64,000 bases of DNA, from the NCBI GenBank assembly GCA_033764095.1, contig JANRJF010000068.1, positions 4,199 through 68,198 on the forward strand, given 5' to 3'. The notes beneath the pieces are model-generated. The model was not told the origin of the DNA and searched no databases. It worked only from the letters and a program-made list of their open reading frames with translations. The stretch comes from Deltaproteobacteria bacterium (GTDB lineage Bacteria > Desulfobacterota > Binatia > HRBIN30 > CADEER01). The position numbers and the translations under genes are program-made. This document shows, piece after piece, positions 2,704 to 32,036 of the stretch. Every line of letters starts with the position of its first letter. The first letter of the stretch is position 1.

Positions 2704-2708
2704 GCGCA

Positions 2709-2790
2709 TATCGCCTATCGCCTATGGCCTATCGTCGGAAAAAGCAGAACGGATCTTCCGACGACAGGCGATCAGCGACAGGCCATAGGC
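2709..2790. repeat. Four tandem heptamers (TATCGCC TATCGCC TATGGCC TATCGTC) leading into a long imperfect hairpin (CCTATGGCC...TCGTCGGAA / TTCCGACGA...GGCCATAGG)
   Basis: Seen directly in the convergent intergenic region between the pilX-like gene and the metE-like gene. Confidence 0.5.
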
Positions 2791-2842
2791 GGTCTGAGGC
2801 CGCGATGGGTGGTCGGCGGCCGGGCGCGAGCTCCAGCGGCGC

Positions 2843-5237: not shown

Positions 5238-5282
5238 CTCGCGCCTCGCGACCGGCGTTGTGCGCGACGTCTGAACTCGGAC

Positions 5283-5395
5283 CCCCATCCTGGCCTTCCC
5301 CCGCTGACGCGGGGGAAGGAAGCGGAGCCACGAACCGAGTTGGTGTCCTTGCTTGTCTCCTTCCCCCGCGCAGCGGGGGAAGGTCGGGATGGGGG
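5283..5395. repeat. REP-like palindromic element: two GC hairpins (CCTTCCCCCGC-TGAC-GCGGGGGAAGG and CCTTCCCCCGC-GCA-GCGGGGGAAGG) nested inside outer CCCCCATCC/GGATGGGGG arms; probable bidirectional terminator
   Basis: Read directly from the sequence. It lies between convergent genes (the DoxX stop at 5237 and the lipoprotein stop at 5457). Confidence 0.55.
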
Positions 5396-10432: not shown

Positions 10433-10514
10433 GGCGCGCCGGCGCGTATGGCGTGTGGCCTATGGCGGGCCTATTCCATACGCCCGCAGCCATGCGCGAG
10501 TCGTCGCCGGCGAC

Positions 10515-21570: not shown

Positions 21571-21734
21571 GTAGCTCTCAACGACACGTCCCGTCGGGAG
21601 CCGGGACGCACGCCGTACGGCCGACGGTTTCCTTGACAACCAGTCGCTGCCTCGGGCAGTCGGTTAGGTCGTTTGATTGAAACCGAGGATCTCGCGCGCG
21701 TGGCGTTCCGCATGCCGGTGAAGAAAGAATAGAA

Positions 21735-21837
21735 CTCAACGCAGAGGCGCAGAGTCACAGAGGGCGCAGAGGCATGCAGAAGAGAAATACTGCTCGTCCT
21801 CTCTGCGCTCTTCGCGCCTCTGCCCCTCCGCGTTGAG
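21735..21837. repeat. Long imperfect palindromic element with arms CTCAACGCAGAGGCGCAGAG / CTCTGCCCCTCCGCGTTGAG; related to the elements at 23033 and 25513
   Basis: Seen directly. It shares CTCAAC(A/G)CAGA and GTTGAGTCTC with the 23033-23188 element. Confidence 0.55.
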
Positions 21838-23017
21838 TCTCCGGGTTTGGGAGGGGCATTTGGGCAATCTGTCAGGTAAGTACGCGATCGTCGGCGTCGG
21901 TACCTCGCGCTTCGGCAAGCTGCAGGGCGTCAGCACGATGGGCTTCACGCTGGAGGCCAGCAAGGCGGCGATCGACGACGCCGGGCTGCCGCGCGACGCG
22001 ATCGATGGCGTGCTGGTGATGATGCCGGCGATCATGGGCGAGCAGCACGGCTGGGCGGCGCGCGTCGCAGCGTATCTCGGTGTGGAACCGACCTTCTCGG
22101 CGACCATGGATCTCGGCGGCGCCACCGCCTGCGGCTCGGTCGCCACCGCCATGGCGGCGATCGACGCCGGCTACTGCACCAGCGTGCTGTGCTGCTTCGC
22201 GACGCAGAACTGGCCGCAGGGTGTCGCCATGCAGCTTTTCGGCTCGGAGTTCCAGGTGCCGTACGGCGACGTCGGCGCGCTCACCCTGATGGGCCACATC
22301 AAGCGACGCCAGATGCACGAGCACGGCTACACGCACGAGCAGTACGGTGCCGTGGCGGTCACCTGGCGCGCGCACGCGCTCAACAATCCAGACGCGCAGA
22401 TGAAGAAGCCGATGACGCTCGACCAGTACCTCGCCTCGCGCTGGGTGGTCGAACCGCTGCGCTTGTTCGACTGCTGCCCGAACACCGACGGCGGTGGCGC
22501 CTGCGTCGTCACCTCGGTCGAGCGCGCGCGCGATCTCGCCAAGCGCCCGGCGCGCATTCTCGGTGCCGGCCAGAGCCACTCCGCCGAGATGATCCAGCCG
22601 ACCGGCCGCGATCCCGGCCGCATCTCCGGCAGCAAGGCGGCCGACCAGCTGTACGCCATGGCCGGCGTGACGCCGCGCGACATCGACTGCGCGCAGCTCT
22701 ACGACGCCTTCACGCCGCGCGTCATGCACGACCTGGTCGCCTACGGTTTCTGCGCACCGGGCGAGGCCGGCGCGTTCGTCGCCGCCGGCAACTGCACCTA
22801 CGGCGGCCAACTGCCCTGCAACACCGCCGGCGGCCTGATCTCGGAGGGCCACCTGTCGGGCTTCGGCCACATTCGCGAAGCGGTGCGCCAGCTGCGCGGC
22901 GAGGCCGGTCCGCGCCAGGTGCCGGATACCGAGCTCTGCCTGGTCACCGGTTACGGTGGCGCGCCGCACGAAGCGCCGCCGACGGTGAGCTACAGCGGGT
23001 TGATCCTGGCGCGCTGA
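21833..23017 (+). CDS. Thiolase-like protein, SCP-x / lipid-transfer-protein type (non-condensing acetyl-CoA C-acyltransferase-like)
   Basis: KYAIVGVGTSRFGK at the N-terminus and catalytic-region Cys/His motifs (CGS, GHIKRRQ, NTAGGLISEGH). TTG start at 21833 lies inside the repeat. The true start may be the TTG at about 21860, after GGGAGGGG. Confidence 0.7.
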   Translation: MSLRVWEGHLGNLSGKYAIVGVGTSRFGKLQGVSTMGFTLEASKAAIDDAGLPRDAIDGVLVMMPAIMGEQHGWAARVAAYLGVEPTFSATMDLGGATACGSVATAMAAIDAGYCTSVLCCFATQNWPQGVAMQLFGSEFQVPYGDVGALTLMGHIKRRQMHEHGYTHEQYGAVAVTWRAHALNNPDAQMKKPMTLDQYLASRWVVEPLRLFDCCPNTDGGGACVVTSVERARDLAKRPARILGAGQSHSAEMIQPTGRDPGRISGSKAADQLYAMAGVTPRDIDCAQLYDAFTPRVMHDLVAYGFCAPGEAGAFVAAGNCTYGGQLPCNTAGGLISEGHLSGFGHIREAVRQLRGEAGPRQVPDTELCLVTGYGGAPHEAPPTVSYSGLILAR

Positions 23018-23032
23018 CCCCGCCTGAAACTG

Positions 23033-23188
23033 CTCAACACAGATGAACACAGACCCCGCTCCGCCCGCCCGATGATTCACGGAGCCTCAACCCATCCTGG
23101 AAATGGGAAATGAAAAGGTTGGTGGAGGGTGGGGCTCTGTGGTCATCGGGGTAGGGGGGCGGGCGGATCTGTGTTCATCTGTGTTGAG
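23033..23188. repeat. MITE-like palindromic element: about 32-bp terminal inverted repeats CTCAACACAGATGAACACAGA...CCGCCCGCCC / GGGCGGGCGGATCTGTGTTCATCTGTGTTGAG flanking about 90 bp
   Basis: Seen directly. The GATGAACACAGA core is shared with the element at 25513. Confidence 0.6.
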
Positions 23189-23213
23189 TCTCTGATCTGA
23201 AGAAGAGGGACGC

Positions 23214-23621
23214 ATGTTCGGAGCGATCGAGAAGCCGTTGCCGCGGCCGACTGAGGACAGCGCGCCGTTCTGGGAAGCGGCGTTCAGGGGCGAGCTGCGC
23301 CTGCAGCGCTGCGGCGACTGCGGACACGTGCGCTTTCCGCCTTCACTGTTGTGTGCACGCTGCCTGTCGGCGAACAGCGAGTGGGCGAAGATGAGTGGTC
23401 GCGGCACGGTCTACAGCTGGGTGATCGTGCACCAGTCGCAGCATCCCGCCTTCAATCCCGATGCGCCCTACAACGTCGTCATCGTCGAGCTGGAGGAAGG
23501 GCCGCGCATGCACGGCACCTTCGTCGGCGACAACGATGACATCCGCATCGGCCTGCCGGTCGAGGTGGTGTTCGACAAGGTCAGCGACGACACCGCGCTG
23601 GTGAAGTGGCGCGCCGCCTAA
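23214..23621 (+). CDS. Zn-ribbon / OB-fold protein (DUF35 family), typical partner of SCP-x-type thiolases
   Basis: CGDCGHVRFPPSLLCARC zinc ribbon followed by an OB-fold region. Placed immediately after the thiolase-like gene. Confidence 0.7.
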   Translation: MFGAIEKPLPRPTEDSAPFWEAAFRGELRLQRCGDCGHVRFPPSLLCARCLSANSEWAKMSGRGTVYSWVIVHQSQHPAFNPDAPYNVVIVELEEGPRMHGTFVGDNDDIRIGLPVEVVFDKVSDDTALVKWRAA

Positions 23622-23700
23622 ATTCGCCCCCTCGTCCGTCCGATTCCCTCCCCCGCCCAGCGGGGGAGGGCTAGGGTGGGGGCCCCGCACAGGAGCCACG

Positions 23701-25536
23701 ATGCCAATCGCCAGCCGCGCCAAACCGAACCGCGCCGCCCGCAAGCCGGCGCGGTCACGCGCCGCCACGCCCGCCGTCGACGCGGTGACCGCGGAGATCA
23801 TCCGCGGTGCGATGGAGACCGTCTGCTACGAGATGGCGACGCACGTCTCGCTCACCGCGACGACGCCGATCCTCAACCAGTCGAACGAGCGCAACGCGAC
23901 GATCCTCGACGGCCGCGGCGCGCTGGCGGCGCTCAGCGTCGGCATCCCGCAGTTCATGCTCAGCTCGACGCTGCCGGTGCGCTTCGCGCTGCAGTTCTTC
24001 GGCGCCGACGGCCTGTTCGACGGCGACGTGCTGGTCGCCAACGATCCCTACCACGGCGGCGGTCACCTGCCGGACTACAACATCTTCGCGCCGGTCTTTC
24101 ACCGCGGCGAGCTGGTGCTGATCGCCTCGATCCAGTGCCACCACGCCGATACCGGCGGCGGTATGCCGGGCGGCTACAACGTCGACGCGCAGGACATCTG
24201 GGCCGAAGGTGTTCGCTTCCCGGCGCTGAAGATCTTCGAGAAGGGCGTCGAGCGCAAAGACGTCTCCTACTTCATGAAGGTCAACAACCGCACCCCGACC
24301 TTCGTCGGCGACCTGCGCGCGCAGATCGGCGCGGCGCAACTCGGCGTGCGGCGGCTGAAGGACGTCATCGCCCGGCACGGCGTCGCCGCGGTGCGCGGCG
24401 CGGCGCAGTACATGATCGACTATGCGGCGCGGCGCTTCCGCGAGGAGGTGCGCGGCTGGCGCGACGGCGTGTACGAGTCGGACGTCTTCGTCGACCACGA
24501 CCCGAAGGGCAACAAAGACATCCACATCCACTGCAAGGTGACGGTGAAGGGCGAGCGGCTGACCGTCGACTTCAGCGGCTCCGACACGCGCGACAACCTC
24601 GCCGCCTACTCCACTTTCGGCAACACGCGCGGCTACGTCGTGGCGCAGATCGCCAGCATGATGGATCCGACGATTCCCAAGAACGAGGGGTTCTTCGATT
24701 CGATCGAGCTGATCGTGCCGGAGGGCTGCTGCCTCAACCCGCCGAAGAACAAGTCGGTCGCCGCCGGCACCCATCACCCCGGCACCGAGGTCGGCGAAGC
24801 GATCGCCAAGGCGCTGGAGCAGGTGATCCCCGAGCGCTGCTGCCCGCAGATCTACAAGATGGGCATGCCGACGGTGATCTTCGGCACCAACCCGAAGACC
24901 AAGCAGCTCTTCATCGACCACTCGGTCGACACCTTCGGCGCCTACTGCGGCGCGGTGAAGGGGCAGGACGGCTGGGGGGCGATGAACGTCAGTTTCGGCA
25001 ACCTGATTCGCGCCACCGGCGAGATCAACGAGAGCATCTTCCCGGTGCGCCACCTGGCGCGCGACTACGCCACCGACAGCGGCGGCGCCGGGCGCTGGCG
25101 CGGCTGCCCCGGTACCAAGTACGTGAAACAGATCCTGGCGCCGTCGCAGATCTATACCTACGTCGTCGGCCGCAAGTACCCGATGCCCGGTATCGCCGGC
25201 GGTCACGACGGCGCGCCCAACGAGCTGCGACTGCGCGCCGGCACCGAGCGCGAGCAGCTCGTCGAGACCACCGCCTTCTACGTCCCGCACGAGCCGGGCG
25301 ACCGCTACGAGTACCGCTACGGCGGCGGCGGTGGCTGGGGCGACCCGCTCGAGCGCGAGCCCGAGAAGGTGCTCGACGACGTGCTCGACGAGTACGTCTC
25401 GATCGAGGGCGCCCGCCGCGACTACGGCGTGGTGATTACGGGGACGTTGGAGGCGCTCGACCTGGCGATCGATCAGGCTGCGACCGTCTCGCTGCGTCAG
25501 GAAATGAAGAACGGAACCACGGATGAACACAGATGA
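23701..25536 (+). CDS. hyuB: Hydantoinase B / 5-oxoprolinase family protein (HyuB-like)
   Basis: 611 aa with GDVLVANDPYHGGGHLPD, the HyuB signature. Confidence 0.8.
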   Translation: MPIASRAKPNRAARKPARSRAATPAVDAVTAEIIRGAMETVCYEMATHVSLTATTPILNQSNERNATILDGRGALAALSVGIPQFMLSSTLPVRFALQFFGADGLFDGDVLVANDPYHGGGHLPDYNIFAPVFHRGELVLIASIQCHHADTGGGMPGGYNVDAQDIWAEGVRFPALKIFEKGVERKDVSYFMKVNNRTPTFVGDLRAQIGAAQLGVRRLKDVIARHGVAAVRGAAQYMIDYAARRFREEVRGWRDGVYESDVFVDHDPKGNKDIHIHCKVTVKGERLTVDFSGSDTRDNLAAYSTFGNTRGYVVAQIASMMDPTIPKNEGFFDSIELIVPEGCCLNPPKNKSVAAGTHHPGTEVGEAIAKALEQVIPERCCPQIYKMGMPTVIFGTNPKTKQLFIDHSVDTFGAYCGAVKGQDGWGAMNVSFGNLIRATGEINESIFPVRHLARDYATDSGGAGRWRGCPGTKYVKQILAPSQIYTYVVGRKYPMPGIAGGHDGAPNELRLRAGTEREQLVETTAFYVPHEPGDRYEYRYGGGGGWGDPLEREPEKVLDDVLDEYVSIEGARRDYGVVITGTLEALDLAIDQAATVSLRQEMKNGTTDEHR

Positions 25537-25622
25537 ACACGGATGGCTTCAGATCGTGATGAATCGAGTTCTTGATTCTCTGTCGGAGTCAATCTGTGTT
25601 CATCCGTGTTCATCCGTGGTTC
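25513..25622. repeat. Palindromic element with arms GGAACCACGGATGAACACAGATGAACACGGATGG / CAATCTGTGTTCATCCGTGTTCATCCGTGGTTCC; the left arm encodes the last 8 codons and stop of hyuB
   Basis: Seen directly. The GATGAACAC core is duplicated in each arm. Confidence 0.6.
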
Positions 25623-25641
25623 CGGCTTTGGTTCTGATGCG

Positions 25642-27699
25642 ATGAGTTACCGCATCGGGATCGACGTCGGCGGCACGTTCACCGACCTGGTGCTGGCGCG
25701 GCCGGATGGCTCGATCGCGCTGGCCAAGAGTCCGACGACGCCGGACGATCAGTCGCGCGGCGTGGTCAACGGCATCGGGCTGCTCGCCGAGGGTGAAGGG
25801 CTGACGCTGCAGGCGCTGCTCAGCAGGACCAGCGCGGTCGTGCACGGCACCACCACCGCCGACAACACGATGATCGAGATGAGCGGCGCAGTGACCGGCC
25901 TGATCACCACGGCGGGACATCGCGACGAGATCGAGCTGCGCCGCGGCTACAAGGAGGACATCTGGGATCCGGCGATCGCGCCGCCGCCGCCGATCGCACC
26001 GCGCCGGCGCCGCATCGGCGTGCCGGAGCGGCTCGACTACGAGGGCCACGTCGTCACGCCGCTCGACGAGGACGCGGTGCGCGCCGCGCTGAGGCGGCTG
26101 AAGCAACTGGGTACCGAATCGCTCGCCGTCGTCTTCATGTTCTCGTTCGTCAACTCGGCGCACGAGCAGCGCGTGCGCGCGATCGCCGCCGAGGAGTGTC
26201 CGGGGCTGCCGGTGTCGCTGTCGCACGAGGTGATGCCGTCGGCGCCGGAGTTCGAGCGCACCAGCACGACGTTGGTCAACGCCTTCGTCGGCCCGAAGAT
26301 CCAACGCTACCTCGAGCGCCTGGTGCGGGCGCTGCGCGAGGCCGGCTACGCGCGCGAGCTGCTGGTCATGCAGTCGAACGGCGGCATCATGACGCCCGAG
26401 TACATCGCGCACCGGCCGGTGACGACGCTCAGCTCCGGTCCGACCGGCGGCGTCATCGCCGCGTGCGCAGTGGCGGGCAGAGCCGGCGTGCACGACTTCG
26501 TCTGCGCCGACATGGGCGGCACCAGCTACGACATCTGTCTGATCCGCGGCGGCCAGCCGGAGGTGAAGGCGGGTTGGAACTGGCATCACCGCTACCTGGT
26601 CGGCCTGCCGATGGTGGACATACACTCGATCGGTGCCGGCGGCGGCTCGATCGCGTCGGTGGTCGCCGGCGCGTTGCAGGTCGGCCCGCGCAGCGCCGGC
26701 GCGCAGCCGGGACCGATCTGCTACGACCGCGGCGGCACGCAGATCACGGTCACCGACGCCAACCTGTTGCTCGGCTATCTGAACCCCGGCGACTTCTGCG
26801 CCGGTCGCATGACGCTCAAGACCGCCGGCGTGCGCGAGGCGATCGAGGCGCAGGTGGCGAAGCCGCTCGGCGTCGACTGGGTCGAGGCGGCGCACGGCAT
26901 CTATCGGCTGGTGAACGCCAACATGGCGAACGCGATCCGCCGCGTCGCGGCGACGCGCGGTGTCGATCCGCGCGGTCTCACCATGGTCGCATACGGCGGC
27001 AACGGCCCGGTGCACGCCACCGCGCAGGCGGACGAGCTGGCGGTCGAAGAGGTGCTGGTGCCGAAAGTGGCGCCGGCGTTTTCGGCGCTGGGGCTGCAGC
27101 TGTCCGACCACCTGGTCGACGAGATGCATGCCTACATCGCGCCGGTCGGCCAGGCGGATGTGTCACGCGTCAACGCGCTGTTCGGCGAGATGGAAGCTGC
27201 GGCGCGCGGCGTGCTCGGCAAGCGCAAGGAGCAACACAAGCGCGTCGAGGTGCGGCGCTTCCTCAACCTCTGCTACCCGGGCCAGACCTTCGACATGGCG
27301 GTGCCGGTGGCGTCGGCCAATGGCCGCCTCAAGTCAGACAGCCTGGCCGCCACCGTCGAGCGCTTCCACGCCCTGCACGAGGAGCTGCACACCTACGCCT
27401 CGCGCGATGAGCAGCCGATCCTGCGCGGCCTGCGTCTGACGCTGGTCGGCGTCACCGAGAAGCCCGACCTGCCGCGCTTCGGCCGCTCGAGCAGCAAGCC
27501 GCCGCTCAAGGGGCGTCGCCAGGCGTTCTTCGGCGGCCGCTTCGTCAGCGCGCCGCTCTACGACGGCGCCAAGGTGCGCGTCGGCCACCGCATCGCTGGC
27601 CCGGCGATCATCGAGGAGCCGTTCACGACCATCGTCCTGCACCCCAAGCAGGTGGCGACGCTCGACCGGCACGGCAACTACCACATCCGCGTCGGGTGA
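25642..27699 (+). CDS. hyuA: Hydantoinase A / 5-oxoprolinase family protein (HyuA-like), ASKHA-fold ATPase
   Basis: MSYRIGIDVGGTFTDLVL is the HyuA N-terminus, followed by ADMGGTSYD. Start set at the first ATG. The GTG at 25606 in the track lies within the repeat. Confidence 0.8.
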   Translation: MSYRIGIDVGGTFTDLVLARPDGSIALAKSPTTPDDQSRGVVNGIGLLAEGEGLTLQALLSRTSAVVHGTTTADNTMIEMSGAVTGLITTAGHRDEIELRRGYKEDIWDPAIAPPPPIAPRRRRIGVPERLDYEGHVVTPLDEDAVRAALRRLKQLGTESLAVVFMFSFVNSAHEQRVRAIAAEECPGLPVSLSHEVMPSAPEFERTSTTLVNAFVGPKIQRYLERLVRALREAGYARELLVMQSNGGIMTPEYIAHRPVTTLSSGPTGGVIAACAVAGRAGVHDFVCADMGGTSYDICLIRGGQPEVKAGWNWHHRYLVGLPMVDIHSIGAGGGSIASVVAGALQVGPRSAGAQPGPICYDRGGTQITVTDANLLLGYLNPGDFCAGRMTLKTAGVREAIEAQVAKPLGVDWVEAAHGIYRLVNANMANAIRRVAATRGVDPRGLTMVAYGGNGPVHATAQADELAVEEVLVPKVAPAFSALGLQLSDHLVDEMHAYIAPVGQADVSRVNALFGEMEAAARGVLGKRKEQHKRVEVRRFLNLCYPGQTFDMAVPVASANGRLKSDSLAATVERFHALHEELHTYASRDEQPILRGLRLTLVGVTEKPDLPRFGRSSSKPPLKGRRQAFFGGRFVSAPLYDGAKVRVGHRIAGPAIIEEPFTTIVLHPKQVATLDRHGNYHIRVG

Positions 27700-31762: not shown

Positions 31763-31788
31763 CGCGCATGGCCGCGCCAAGGGCGCGC

Positions 31789-31817
31789 CCGGCCGACACC
31801 AGGTCGGCCGGCTACCC
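31789..31817. repeat. Left copy of a 29-bp inverted repeat CCGGCCGACACCAGGTCGGCCGGCTACCC (itself a 9-bp-stem hairpin)
   Basis: The partner at 31947-31975 matches at 28 of 29 positions in reverse complement. The pair flank 129 bp, giving a MITE-like architecture. Confidence 0.55.
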
Positions 31818-31946
31818 GGTGTCTTCAGATCGGGTCGGCCAATACGGGTTCCATCGGCCGACGGTGCAACGCGCAGCCCGCGCACTGCACAGTTGCAGCG
31901 ACACCCAGGCCTGCCGGACAACCGCAGCGCTCCTCACACACGGATT

Positions 31947-31975
31947 GGGTAGCCGGCCGACCTCGTGTCGGCCGG
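31947..31975. repeat. Right copy (inverted) of the 29-bp repeat: GGGTAGCCGGCCGACCTCGTGTCGGCCGG
   Basis: See the left copy. Confidence 0.55.
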
Positions 31976-32036
31976 CGGCGCGAAGCGCCGCCGATGGACG
32001 CTTGCGACCGGTCCGACCGCGTTCTAGTCGCACGCG

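What the first reader, a model, noticed from the sequence alone, without database searches (positions are those of the whole stretch)
21735..25622. Family of long palindromic MITE-like elements occupying every intergenic spacer of the thiolase/DUF35/hyuB/hyuA cluster
Three elements (21735-21837, 23033-23188, 25513-25622) have 20-34-bp terminal inverted repeats. They share the cores CTCAAC(A/G)CAGA, GATGAACACAGA (TCTGTGTTCATC on the other arm) and GTTGAGTCTC. They sit upstream of the thiolase-like gene, between it and DUF35, and between hyuB and hyuA. They are too long and too widely spaced to be simple operators. They look like a non-autonomous mobile or REP-like family, or structured RNA elements, that has colonised one metabolic cluster. 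Their role is unknown and could be regulatory (attenuator, RNase E site or shared transcription-factor site).
Basis: seen in the sequence. Interest (0 to 1): 0.7.

Follow-up and report, generated by a model that had tools for sequence, protein, structure and literature searches.

The report
Cross-phylum palindromic repeats tied to GxxExxY
The three long palindromes in this metabolic operon are real, but they are not special to it: they are gene-less copies of a very widespread bacterial repeat whose arms, in full-length form, always bracket a small putative nuclease gene (GxxExxY), which points to an apparently undescribed kind of selfish DNA element.

Summary
Three long imperfect palindromes lie at 21734-21838 (A), 23033-23188 (B) and 25512-25624 (C). 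They fold far better than shuffled sequence (z -6 to -11.6). Their arms are tandem 8-10-nt units (CGCAGAGG; CACRGATGAA).

The cluster-specific reading is not supported.
- The C-type 19-mer occurs in more than 118 species genomes from about 20 phyla, in unrelated contexts.
- A-type units also occur in several phyla.
- All 12 GxxExxY (PF13366/TIGR04256, PD-(D/E)XK fold) gene loci I examined, about 9 distinct sites, are bracketed by inverted arms of this kind. One of them ends in the exact B terminus (…CATCTGTGTTGAGTCT).

In Binatia relatives the same operon shows patchy occupancy: conserved arms, unalignable loops, a nested insertion and a decayed half-element. In orthologous cassettes, changes in one arm are mirrored in the other.

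Best reading: A, B and C are non-coding (REPIN/MITE-like) members of a selfish palindromic element family linked to GxxExxY nuclease cassettes, lodged just after stop codons. The last seven codons and the stop of hyuB come from arm C. Mobility and the nuclease's role are inferred, not shown. Any effect on the operon's mRNA is unproven. I found no description of the family in the searchable literature or in Rfam.

The parts
21734..21838 (.). Element A: 105-nt palindrome. Its arms are built of about four tandem 8-9-nt units (CGCAGAGG type). Ends are ACTCAAC…GTTGAGT. It starts 1 nt after the stop codon of a deleted-ilvC remnant and ends 21 nt before the thiolase-like start codon.
   Evidence: (pair I2). 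The orthologous copy in L120 has the same ends and near-perfect arms. CGCAGAGG-type arms occur in 6 other loci: five from cyanobacterial, deltaproteobacterial, Tectomicrobia and two Planctomycetota genomes, plus one viral contig.
21734..21771 (+). Left arm of A
   Evidence: pair I2: 38 nt, 82% complementary to 21801-21838.
21801..21838 (+). Right arm of A
   Evidence: pair I2.
23033..23188 (.). Element B: 156-nt near-complete palindrome (about 61 pairs). The outer units are CACAGATGAA; the inner units have degenerated into G/C-rich sequence plus a GATGAYCACRGAGC unit. It starts 15 nt after the thiolase stop codon and ends 25 nt before the DUF35 start codon.
   Evidence: (pair I3). Orthologous copies: L120 (same ends, different interior) and L133 (with another palindromic repeat nested in its loop). 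B-like copies L130 and L131 lie in other operons. The right end …CATCTGTGTTGAGTCT is identical to the right end of the GxxExxY cassette in L127.
25512..25624 (.). Element C: 113-nt palindrome. Each arm is GGAACC + three tandem 10-nt units CACRGATGAA, the canonical form of the cross-phylum family. It overlaps the 3' end of hyuB and ends 17 nt before the hyuA start codon.
   Evidence: (pair I1). The same 19-mer occurs in more than 118 species genomes. Orthologous copies in L120 and L121 have unalignable loops. L133 keeps only a decayed left arm, L134 has a diverged palindrome, and L123/L124 are empty.
25512..25553 (+). Left arm of C. It encodes the last seven residues of hyuB (GTTDEHR) and its stop codon.
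   Evidence: The hyuB tail is …NGTTDEHR* in the window and L120, and …TDEHR* in L121. L123, which lacks the element, ends differently.
25583..25624 (+). Right arm of C
   Evidence: pair I1.
25534..25536 (+). hyuB stop codon (TGA), supplied by the second 10-nt unit of arm C
   Evidence: Family-wide, 59 of 238 forward-type arms contain the stop codon of an ORF of at least 120 aa.
21860..27699 (+). Host operon: thiolase-like (21860-23017), DUF35/ChsH2 (23214-23621), hydantoinase B (23701-25536), hydantoinase A (25642-27699). These are the host genes, not part of the elements.
   Evidence: Pfam. Synteny comEC-comEA-(ilvC or ECH)-thiolase-DUF35-hyuB-hyuA in relatives.

Best explanation
A, B and C are gene-less, short-loop members of a very large cross-phylum family of palindromic repeats. 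Each arm is an array of 3-6 tandem units of about 8-10 nt, following the pattern AAC-(C)RCRRAN…, for example CACRGATGAA, CGCAGAGG or CGCAAATGAA.

The full-length form of the family is a small cassette: the two inverted arms bracket a gene of about 125 aa for a GxxExxY protein (PF13366/TIGR04256, a minimal PD-(D/E)XK nuclease fold). The start codon of that gene is usually the ATG of the innermost arm unit.

I read the gene-less palindromes as non-autonomous or decayed derivatives, analogous to REPINs relative to RAYT genes or to MITEs relative to IS elements. They lodge immediately 3' of stop codons in transcribed spacers, persist for long periods, keep their two arms complementary, lose or swap their loops, and eventually decay.

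In this operon their demonstrable effects are structural:
- They enlarge three intercistronic spacers.
- One of them supplies the last 7 codons and the stop codon of hyuB.
- They would place 40-60-bp hairpins in a polycistronic transcript, if the cluster is transcribed as one. Such hairpins are plausible RNase III or decay-barrier sites.

Shown: the anatomy, the distribution, the link to GxxExxY, the turnover at orthologous sites, and the maintenance of arm complementarity.

Inferred: that the elements move, that the GxxExxY nuclease is what acts on the arms, and any effect on expression.
For: 1. Real and non-random.

2. Not cluster-specific.
Phyla include Planctomycetota, Acidobacteriota, Verrucomicrobiota, Cyanobacteria, four proteobacterial classes, Chloroflexota, NC10, Bacteroidota and Armatimonadota.
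- It also occurs in 32 viral contigs.
- Consensus: ACCACRGATGAACACRGATGAACACRGAT-loop-reverse complement.
- Of 135 arms, 71 have a partner within 150 nt, 15 at 150-700 nt, 44 have none and 5 sit at contig ends.

3. GxxExxY link.
- All 12 GxxExxY gene loci examined (about 9 distinct sites) are bracketed by inverted tandem-unit arms.
- Seven were found in loci chosen by arm pattern.
- Five distinct ones were sampled by protein or were incidental: L070, L167, L168/L169, L170, L171. L172-175 add another.
- Family assignment: TIGR04256 at E 1e-36 to 1e-43 and PF13366 at E about 1e-40.
- About 75% (roughly 90) of the best 120 homologues begin M-[ND]-[TA]-[DN], which is the peptide of an arm unit ATG-RAC-RCA-RAT.
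- The L127 cassette ends …CATCTGTGTTGAGTCT, exactly like window element B.

4. Life-cycle signs at orthologous spacers of Binatia relatives with 88-95% hyuB identity.
- Sites are occupied in some relatives and empty in others.
- Arms are conserved while loops cannot be aligned.
- L133 carries a second repeat nested in B and only a decayed left arm of C.

5. Arm complementarity is maintained.
- In orthologous cassettes L127, L172 and L168, differences between elements are mirrored in both arms: 9 mirrored against 1 single-arm, 7 against 1, and 4 against 2. Arm-versus-arm mismatches are 0-3 of 40.
- Across 20 hairpins the variable R/Y positions pair 77% of the time against 53% expected (p 1e-4).

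6. Position. 134 of 238 forward-type arms have an ORF of at least 120 aa ending within -60 to +35 nt, against 28 of 238 random positions.

7. No Rfam family. No paper in the library holds the motif strings or derived peptides.
Against: - No transposition event, target-site duplication or precise empty-versus-filled pair was found. The empty sites in relatives are too diverged to align.
- The exact B-type terminus is rare: 7 hits in the JGI metagenome collection. There is therefore no sign of a recent burst.
- The window contains no GxxExxY gene. I could not examine the rest of the source genome.
- Identical or near-identical GxxExxY proteins (P0123, 7 contigs) all sit in one genomic context, so the cassette looks rather sedentary.
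- GxxExxY could be cargo of the arms, or a gene that needs them for expression, rather than their mobilising enzyme.
- Positional persistence of A, B and C across 88-95% relatives, and three elements within 4 kb of a 64-kb window, could also mean the host benefits from them.
Confidence: 0.62

Rival explanations
1. Host-serving intercistronic RNA structures. The hairpins are kept because they process, stabilise or attenuate segments of the thiolase-DUF35-hyuB-hyuA transcript, for example through RNase III cleavage or 3'-exonuclease barriers, and so set the relative subunit levels.
For: - Very stable hairpins sit exactly in the spacers of co-directional, syntenic genes.
- B and C are about 10 kcal/mol more stable as sense RNA.
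- Sites are occupied in several relatives with 88-95% hyuB identity.
- Three elements lie in one 4-kb operon of a 64-kb window. The rough chance of such clustering is about 0.01 (my own estimate from about 45 spacers).
- Arm complementarity is maintained.
Against: - The same sequences occur in unrelated contexts across about 20 phyla.
- Relatives with the same operon lack them (L123/L124 have no A or C; L134 has no A or B), and L133 carries a decayed half of C.
- There is no consistent sense-strand advantage: 6 sense against 4 antisense.
- No terminator-like tail follows the stems. There is no Rfam match.
- Loops are not conserved even between relatives with 95% hyuB identity.
Confidence: 0.15
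2. Scars of former GxxExxY cassettes. Gene-less hairpins are never mobile themselves. Each is what remains after the ORF between two arms was deleted, and the cassette is the only unit that inserts.
For: - The arms and termini of B equal a cassette end.
- Loop lengths form a continuum from 11 to about 520 nt.
- Loops are unalignable between close relatives, as independent deletions would give.
- Orphan arms are common: 44 of 135.
Against: - No GxxExxY remnant is detectable in any loop, including the 217-335-nt loops of L072 and L087.
- Gene-less hairpins outnumber cassettes by more than 10 to 1 in the sample.
- No orthologous site was seen with a cassette in one genome and a hairpin in another.
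Confidence: 0.15
3. Integron-type attC recombination sites, marking thiolase and DUF35 as gene cassettes (a CALIN-like array).
For: The ends of A and B fit the attC box consensus: RYYYAAC (ACTCAAC, GCTCAAC) … GTTRRRY (GTTGAGT). Element lengths of 105-156 nt are near the attC range, by my recollection of that range.
Against: - C does not fit: CGGAAC…GTTCCG.
- The arms are continuous stems of 24-60 bp made of tandem units, not R/L boxes with an unpaired spacer.
- In full-length relatives the ORF lies inside the palindrome rather than beside it.
- The four genes form a syntenic operon conserved across relatives, whether or not the elements are present.
- No integrase or recombinase domain was found in the genes scanned across 0.5-37.6 kb.
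Confidence: 0.02
4. Classical REP/BIME or REPIN elements mobilised by a RAYT (IS200/IS605-like Y1) transposase.
For: - Extragenic palindromes lie at gene 3' ends and are often arranged as inverted pairs.
- A single enzyme gene flanked by the repeats is also how RAYT genes are arranged (PMC3116915, PMC3337134).
Against: - There is no GTAG or CGTC tag at either end. That tag defines the two REP superfamilies (PMC3733652).
- The flanked gene is a PD-(D/E)XK-fold protein, not an HUH/Y1 transposase.
- The arms are tandem decamers and are nearly identical across phyla. From my own knowledge, REP sequences are lineage-specific.
- No transposase domain was found in the scanned part of the window.
Confidence: 0.04
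5. Chance palindromes or shared transcription-factor operators.
For: None beyond the presence of inverted symmetry.
Against: - 7 motif hits against 0.24 expected.
- Fold z-scores down to -11.6.
- More than 118 genomes carry the same 19-mer.
- Stems of 38-60 bp built from tandem units are unlike operators.
Confidence: 0.02

Closest known systems
REPINs / REP sequences with their RAYT genes (Pseudomonas, E. coli; PMC3116915, PMC3337134, PMC3733652)
   Same: - Short extragenic palindromes arranged as inverted pairs that form long hairpins.
- They sit at gene 3' ends and inside operons.
- Non-coding copies far outnumber an enzyme gene that is itself flanked by the same repeats in inverted orientation.
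- Long persistence at orthologous sites, and no obvious target-site duplication.
   Different: - The flanked gene is a PD-(D/E)XK-fold GxxExxY protein of about 125 aa, not a Y1/HUH transposase, and it lies inside the palindrome.
- The arms are arrays of tandem 8-10-nt units and carry no GTAG/CGTC tag.
- One and the same arm sequence recurs almost unchanged in about 20 phyla, alongside sibling unit types in the same genomes.
- GxxExxY genes are multi-copy families (my recollection for copy number per genome). RAYTs are typically single-copy (PMC5581495).
MITEs and Correia-type elements (non-autonomous derivatives of IS elements)
   Same: 100-160-nt elements with inverted ends and no coding capacity. 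They lie in intergenic spacers, share ends with a longer gene-bearing form, and are patchily present among relatives.
   Different: - No target-site duplication was found.
- The interior is not conserved between copies; only the arms are.
- The gene-bearing form encodes no recognised transposase.
23S rRNA intervening sequences carrying a small ORF (for example the Coxiella burnetii IVS with S23p; PMC4990558)
   Same: A small ORF is enclosed by inverted repeats that pair into a long stem in the host transcript. PMC4990558 describes that IVS as a selfish genetic element inside a highly transcribed host gene.
   Different: - The ORF family differs. The four-helix-bundle fold of S23p is my recollection, not tested here; the cassettes here encode PD-(D/E)XK GxxExxY.
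- The location differs: rRNA helices there, spacers between protein genes here.
- RNase III processing of the elements described here is untested.
Integron attC sites
   Same: Imperfect palindromes of about 60-150 nt next to small promoterless ORFs. A and B end in RYYYAAC…GTTRRRY.
   Different: See the membership test: the architecture, the position of the ORF, the absence of an integrase and the conserved operon all argue against membership.

Membership tests
REP / REPIN (RAYT-associated) | Conserved GTAG or CGTC tetranucleotide tag at one end of a 20-40-nt palindrome (PMC3733652) | tested here: not met
   The ends are ACTCAACGCAG…, CTCAACACAG… and CGGAACCACGG… with no GTAG or CGTC tag. The family consensus ACCACRGATG… has none either.
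REP / REPIN (RAYT-associated) | A RAYT (Y1/HUH, IS200/IS605-like) gene flanked by the repeats in the same genome | tested here: inconclusive
   The genes scanned across 0.5-37.6 kb of the window show no transposase domain. The rest of the source genome is not available. Wherever a gene is flanked by these arms, it is GxxExxY.
REP / REPIN (RAYT-associated) | Two repeats in inverted orientation around a short spacer, forming a hairpin; extragenic, many copies | tested here: met
   Copy number within the source genome was not testable.
MITE | Terminal inverted repeats shared with an autonomous element | tested here: met
   The right end of B is identical over 16 nt (and over the 21-nt search pattern) to the end of the GxxExxY cassette in L127. 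C-type arms bracket GxxExxY genes in L018, L026, L029, L045 and L008. Whether the cassette is autonomous is unknown.
MITE | Target-site duplication flanking the element | tested here: not met
   No direct repeat flanks A, B or C, nor the clean hairpins in L003, L012, L016, L024, L081, L085, L090 and L094. There the flanks tend to extend the palindrome instead.
MITE | Internal sequence conserved among copies; multiple near-identical copies per genome | tested here: not met
   Loops cannot be aligned even between orthologous copies in relatives with 95% hyuB identity. Only 7 metagenome contigs carry the exact B end. A per-genome census was not possible.
Integron attC site | R''(RYYYAAC)-L''…L'-R'(GTTRRRY) boxes with unpaired spacers and extrahelical bases | tested here: not met
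   The 7-mers fit for A and B but not for C. The stems are continuous and made of tandem units.
Integron attC site | Array of single-ORF cassettes, each followed by its attC, usually near intI | tested here: not met
   The genes form a conserved syntenic operon that exists with or without the elements. No integrase was found in the scanned genes across 0.5-37.6 kb. In full-length relatives the ORF lies inside the palindrome.
Known structured RNA family (Rfam 15) | Match to a covariance model at or above the gathering score | tested here: not met
   No match at the gathering threshold over the whole window. Only spurious miRNA and snoRNA hits with E above 0.1 appear at the permissive threshold.
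GxxExxY-bracketing tandem-unit palindromes (the family proposed here) | Each arm is at least 2-3 tandem units of about 8-10 nt of the type (AAC)(C)RCRRAN…, and the two arms are inverted | tested here: met
   A: CGCAGAGG x4. B: CACAGATGAA x2 plus degenerate units. C: CACRGATGAA x3. The same unit types occur in other phyla.
GxxExxY-bracketing tandem-unit palindromes (the family proposed here) | A GxxExxY (PF13366) gene between the arms, in the full-length form | tested here: not met
   A, B and C have loops of 29-108 nt with no ORF. The window has no GxxExxY gene. They are therefore the gene-less form.

The most novel reading that the evidence does not exclude
GxxExxY proteins (PF13366/TIGR04256, function unknown, thousands of homologues) are the nucleases of a previously unrecognised class of selfish element. 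Its ends are inverted arrays of tandem decamers. It spreads across bacterial phyla, and its gene-less hairpin derivatives, such as A, B and C, litter operon spacers. The nuclease would recognise the arm arrays or the cruciform or hairpin they form, and would drive either transposition or homing of the cassette into gene-less hairpins.
Probability: 0.35. Interest if true: 0.85.

Novelty: new variant of a known kind. Interest (0 to 1): 0.68.

Why it matters
- **A possible function for a large orphan family.** If the link holds, GxxExxY/PDDEXK_3 gets a candidate role. In one search, 7910 of 8000 scored candidates matched at E ≤ 1e-10.
- **A possibly new mobile-element mechanism.** A PD-(D/E)XK nuclease would act on palindromic tandem-decamer ends. 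One arm sequence conserved in about 20 phyla raises the question of what constrains it.
- **Practical consequences.** These repeats appear to break metagenome assemblies: L001 ends at the left edge of element B, and most contigs carrying GxxExxY are 1-3 kb. They also create spurious ORFs (ICVHLCSSV…, MNTDEHR…) and rewrite gene ends, such as the last 7 residues and the stop codon of hyuB here.
- **For this operon.** The result removes the idea of a cluster-specific regulator. What remains testable is whether the hairpins incidentally shape mRNA processing.

Tried and rejected
- **Rfam.** The gathering search and the permissive search gave nothing meaningful.
- **Literature.** I searched for the 13-19-mers and derived peptides, GxxExxY/PF13366/TIGR04256 and the IVS protein family. 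No paper describes these repeats or their link to GxxExxY. The library is incomplete, so an earlier description cannot be excluded.
- **Sense-strand bias of hairpin stability, as a sign of RNA-level selection.** 6 against 4, inconclusive. A·C against G·T mismatches: 8 against 6.
- **XisI as a second cargo gene.** Rejected. In L055 a single arm sits inside another inverted repeat that has inserted into the 5' end of xisI.
- **Longer 'loops' with ordinary genes** (L093 MoxR-like, L074, L030). These are simply separate elements flanking normal genes.
- **Loops of L087 (335 nt) and L072 (217 nt).** No GxxExxY remnant.
- **Recent transposition, via an exact-protein look-up (P0123).** All 7 contigs share one context, and that context is a degraded version of the L127/L168 methylase/helicase locus. 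So this gives no evidence of movement.
- **Protein-based scan of viral contigs for GxxExxY.** Only one locus.
- **Sequence search of PDB with GxxExxY.** Nothing. The fold search gave a generic PD-(D/E)XK / Cas4-like fold.
- **CsrA-site resemblance (CACGGAUG against ACARGGAUG) and DnaA-box resemblance.** Considered from memory and dropped. Half the units are CACAGAT with no GGA, and the motifs lie in stems.
- **Candidate palindrome at 10438-10500.** Not significant (z -0.74).

Full report
**1. The observation**

| Element | Arms | Arm length | Complementarity | Gap |
|---|---|---|---|---|
| A | 21734-21771 / 21801-21838 | 38 nt | 82% | 29 nt |
| B | 23033-23056 / 23165-23188 | 24 nt | 96% | 108 nt |
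| C | 25512-25553 / 25583-25624 | 42 nt | 86% | 29 nt |

- Folding shows that B is palindromic almost throughout its 156 nt, about 61 pairs.
- All three fold far better than dinucleotide shuffles on both strands, with z from -6.4 to -11.6 and no shuffle doing as well.
- GATGAACACRGA (1 mismatch allowed) occurs 7 times in the 64-kb window, all in B and C, against 0.24 expected.
- CTCAACRCAGA marks both ends of A and B. GTTGAGTCTC follows both.
- The arms are not plain inverted repeats. They are arrays of tandem short units: CGCAGAGG x4.1 in A and CACGGATGAA x2.8 per arm in C.
- The genes are a thiolase-like protein, a DUF35/ChsH2 protein, hydantoinase B and hydantoinase A.
- The hyuB reading frame runs into arm C. 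Its last seven residues (GTTDEHR) and its TGA (25534-25536) are element sequence.
- The fourth spacer (DUF35-hyuB) carries a different palindromic repeat, so 'every spacer' overstates the case.

**2. The family is not specific to this cluster**

- The hits come from Planctomycetota, Acidobacteriota, Verrucomicrobiota, Cyanobacteria, Alpha-, Beta-, Gamma- and Deltaproteobacteria, Chloroflexota, NC10, Latescibacterota, Lentisphaerota, Bacteroidota, Armatimonadota, KSB1, Leptospiraceae, Tectomicrobia, Bdellovibrionota and others. The set includes isolates and closed chromosomes.
- The consensus is ACCACRGATGAACACRGATGAACACRGAT, a variable loop, then the reverse complement. That is the anatomy of element C.
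- Of 135 arms carrying the 19-mer, 71 have a partner arm within 150 nt, 15 at 150-700 nt, 44 have none and 5 sit at contig ends.
- The same loci hold sibling arms with other units: CGCRGATGAA, CGCAAATGAA, CRCGGAGN, CRCGAAGN and CGCAGAGG. The last is the unit of element A, found in six other loci: five from four further phyla and one on a viral contig.
- The motif also occurs in 32 IMG/VR contigs. In PLSDB it occurs only on a Thiodictyon megaplasmid.
- The exact B terminus is rare, with 7 JGI metagenome contigs. These include B-like elements in a macB-like ABC junction (L130) and in another hyuA-hyuB junction (L131).

**3. What the arms belong to**

Several arms sat directly in front of ORFs that begin MNTD…. 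These ORFs are GxxExxY proteins: TIGR04256 at E 1e-36 to 1e-43 and PF13366 PDDEXK_3 at E about 1e-40.

- An HMM search of all ORFs in about 1.3 Mb of fetched loci found seven GxxExxY genes. Every one is bracketed by inverted tandem-unit arms.
- One of them, L127, was found through the B-type end. It has four-unit arms and ends …CATCTGTGTTGAGTCT, identical to the right end of window element B.
- Those loci were chosen by arm pattern, so I also sampled by protein. L167 (viral contig; CGCRAAAAG units) is bracketed.
- So are L168/L169 (CGCAAATGAA x4), L170 (CACCGATGAA) and L171, and L172-175.
- The incidental gene in L070 (CCGCRGATCT units) is bracketed as well.
- In total, all 12 loci examined (about 9 distinct sites) are bracketed.
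- The start codon is normally the ATG of the innermost unit. About 75% (roughly 90) of the best 120 homologues begin M-[ND]-[TA]-[DN], which is ATG-RAC-RCA-RAT.
- The family is huge: 7910 of 8000 scored candidates at E ≤ 1e-10.
- The D…(D/E)xK residues are invariant or nearly so.
- XisI in L055 is not a second cargo gene.

**4. Behaviour at orthologous sites**

hyuB homologues are annotated Candidatus Binatia. I compared the conserved comEC-comEA-…-thiolase-DUF35-hyuB-hyuA locus in relatives.

| Locus | hyuB identity | State of the sites |
|---|---|---|
| L120 | 95% | A, B and C present with the same ends; interiors and loops cannot be aligned with the window's |
| L133 | 92% | B present with another palindromic repeat nested in its loop; only a decayed left arm of C; a degenerate A |
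| L121 | 91% | C present; a different-unit hairpin at the A site; an empty B site; an extra CACAGAGG-type hairpin in the DUF35-hyuB spacer |
| L123/L124 | 90% | No A and no C; a CACGGAG-type hairpin at the B site |
| L134 | 88% | No A and no B; a diverged palindrome at the C site |

- Between the window and L120, the arms of A are 77.5% identical and the loop about 52%. L120's arms are near-perfect, whereas the window's carry seven mismatches.
- This is the pattern of gain, persistence, decay and loss expected of interspersed repeats. It is not the pattern of a conserved regulatory structure.

**5. The arms are kept complementary**

- In three orthologous cassettes (L127, L172, L168; proteins 75-88% identical) the two arms of each element differ at 0-3 of 40 positions.
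- The elements differ from one another at 6-10 of 40 positions, and nearly all of these differences are mirrored in both arms: 9 mirrored against 1 single-arm, 7 against 1, and 4 against 2.
- Across 20 hairpins from different genomes, the variable R/Y positions pair 77% of the time against 53% expected (Fisher p 1e-4).
- This could reflect selection on a hairpin or cruciform, or arm-to-arm copying. I cannot tell which.
- I also cannot tell whether the relevant molecule is DNA or RNA, because strand-bias tests were inconclusive.

**6. Position**

- 134 of 238 forward-type arms have an ORF of at least 120 aa ending within -60 to +35 nt, against 28 of 238 random positions. In 59 the stop codon lies inside the arm. 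ORFs here are stop-to-stop, so the numbers are rough.
- A, B and C follow the rule. They begin 1, 15 and -25 nt from the upstream stop codon, and end 17-25 nt before the next start codon.
- The forward arm CAGATGAACA x3, at a 10-nt period, places TGA and ATG in all three frames. This follows directly from the sequence.
- There is no terminator tail or sigma-70 consensus at the elements.

**7. Interpretation**

The best-supported reading is that A, B and C are the gene-less form of a selfish palindromic element family whose full-length form is a GxxExxY cassette. The relation resembles REPINs to RAYT genes (PMC3116915, PMC3337134) or MITEs to IS elements.

- Mobility itself is inferred from patchy occupancy and cross-phylum spread. 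I found no target-site duplication, no alignable empty site and no multi-context identical copy.
- That the GxxExxY nuclease acts on the arms is an inference from invariable bracketing and from the fold.
- Alternatives remain open: the hairpins may be scars of deleted cassettes, or the host may have co-opted them as mRNA hairpins.
- The attC reading, the classical REP/RAYT reading, operators and chance are disfavoured. The reasons are set out in the rival explanations and the membership test.

**8. Novelty**

- Nothing in Rfam 15 matches.
- No paper in the searchable library contains the motif, its spurious peptides, or a description of repeats around GxxExxY genes.
- Palindromic interspersed repeats are a known kind. 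This variant stands out for its tandem-decamer arms, its near-identical sequence across phyla, and its PD-(D/E)XK partner gene lying inside the palindrome. As far as I can check, it is undescribed.
- The library is incomplete. Database family notes, for example for TIGR04256, could not be read, so prior mention cannot be excluded.

Noticed in passing
window 23640-23685; also window 5282-5395; L120 4940-4985; L133 about 2540-2700; L125 hyuB-hyuA spacer: A second, unrelated palindromic repeat family of the CCCTCCCCCGC…GCGGGGGAGGG(N)TAGGGTGGGGG / CCTTCCCCCGC…GCGGGGGAAGG type. It fills the DUF35-hyuB spacer, forms a REPIN-like double hairpin at 5282-5395, and is nested inside the loop of element B in relative L133.
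   Followed up: partly
window 21700-21732 (compare L120 2009-3031, L121 2069-3067): The ketol-acid reductoisomerase gene (ilvC) lies between comEA and the thiolase gene in relatives L120 and L121. In the window it has been deleted, leaving its leader fused to its last ~30 nt (GTGGCGTTCCGCATGCCGGTGAAGAAAGAATAG). Element A starts 1 nt after that remnant's stop codon. Relatives L134 and the P0007 contig have an enoyl-CoA hydratase gene at this position instead.
   Followed up: partly
window 2705-2795: Another palindrome whose arms are tandem short units, here 7-nt CGCCTAT / ATAGGCG. It lies just after a gene end and a GC-rich hairpin (DNA fold z -4.4). It may be a heptamer-unit relative of the same superfamily. 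Heptamer-unit arms (AGGAGTC, GTTCACA, CAATGAA) also occur in L015, L025, L013 and L116.
   Followed up: partly
window 31783-31981: A 35-nt inverted repeat, 91% complementary, 129 nt apart (GCGCGCCCGGCCGACACCAGGTCGGCCGGCTACCC…). Each arm contains its own small hairpin. It lies in the 640-nt spacer between a luciferase-like monooxygenase gene and a TPR gene.
   Followed up: no
L029 2209-2601 and L070 1319-1783: Two related betaproteobacterial genomes (Usitatibacter sp. and GR16-43) carry GxxExxY cassettes in what looks, from the conserved flanking sequence, like the same spacer between two branched-chain amino-acid ABC permease genes (livH-livM-like; my reading, not tested). Their arm units differ (CACRGATGAA against CCGCRGATCT), and the proteins are only 54% identical. 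The L029 protein is closer (60%) to one from an NC10 genome that has the same arms.
   Followed up: partly
L026 1780-1950: Three forward arms of three different unit types (CGCAAATGAA, CGCAGATGAA, CACAGATGAA) lie head to tail upstream of one GxxExxY gene. Only the last has a partner arm downstream.
   Followed up: no
L055 840-940 and 1770-1870; L009; L104 (one cyanobacterial MAG): Here a single CACAGATGAA arm sits in the loop of a different inverted repeat (TAGACCTCTTGCAAAAG…CTTTTTGCAAGAGGTCTA). One copy has replaced the 5' end of an xisI-like gene.
   Followed up: partly
L127, L168/L169, L172-175: In these Acetobacteraceae-like genomes the GxxExxY cassette lies between a ResIII/SNF2 helicase gene and an N6_N4 DNA methylase gene, a defence-island-like setting. 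In L172-175 short ORFs flank the cassette, and the flanking sequence matches the helicase start and methylase end of L127/L168; I read these ORFs as gene fragments.
   Followed up: no
L001 (Logan DRR729085 contig, 940 nt): A near-identical contig of the same strain ends exactly at the left edge of element B. This is consistent with these repeats breaking short-read assemblies. Most contigs carrying GxxExxY are only 1-3 kb.
   Followed up: no
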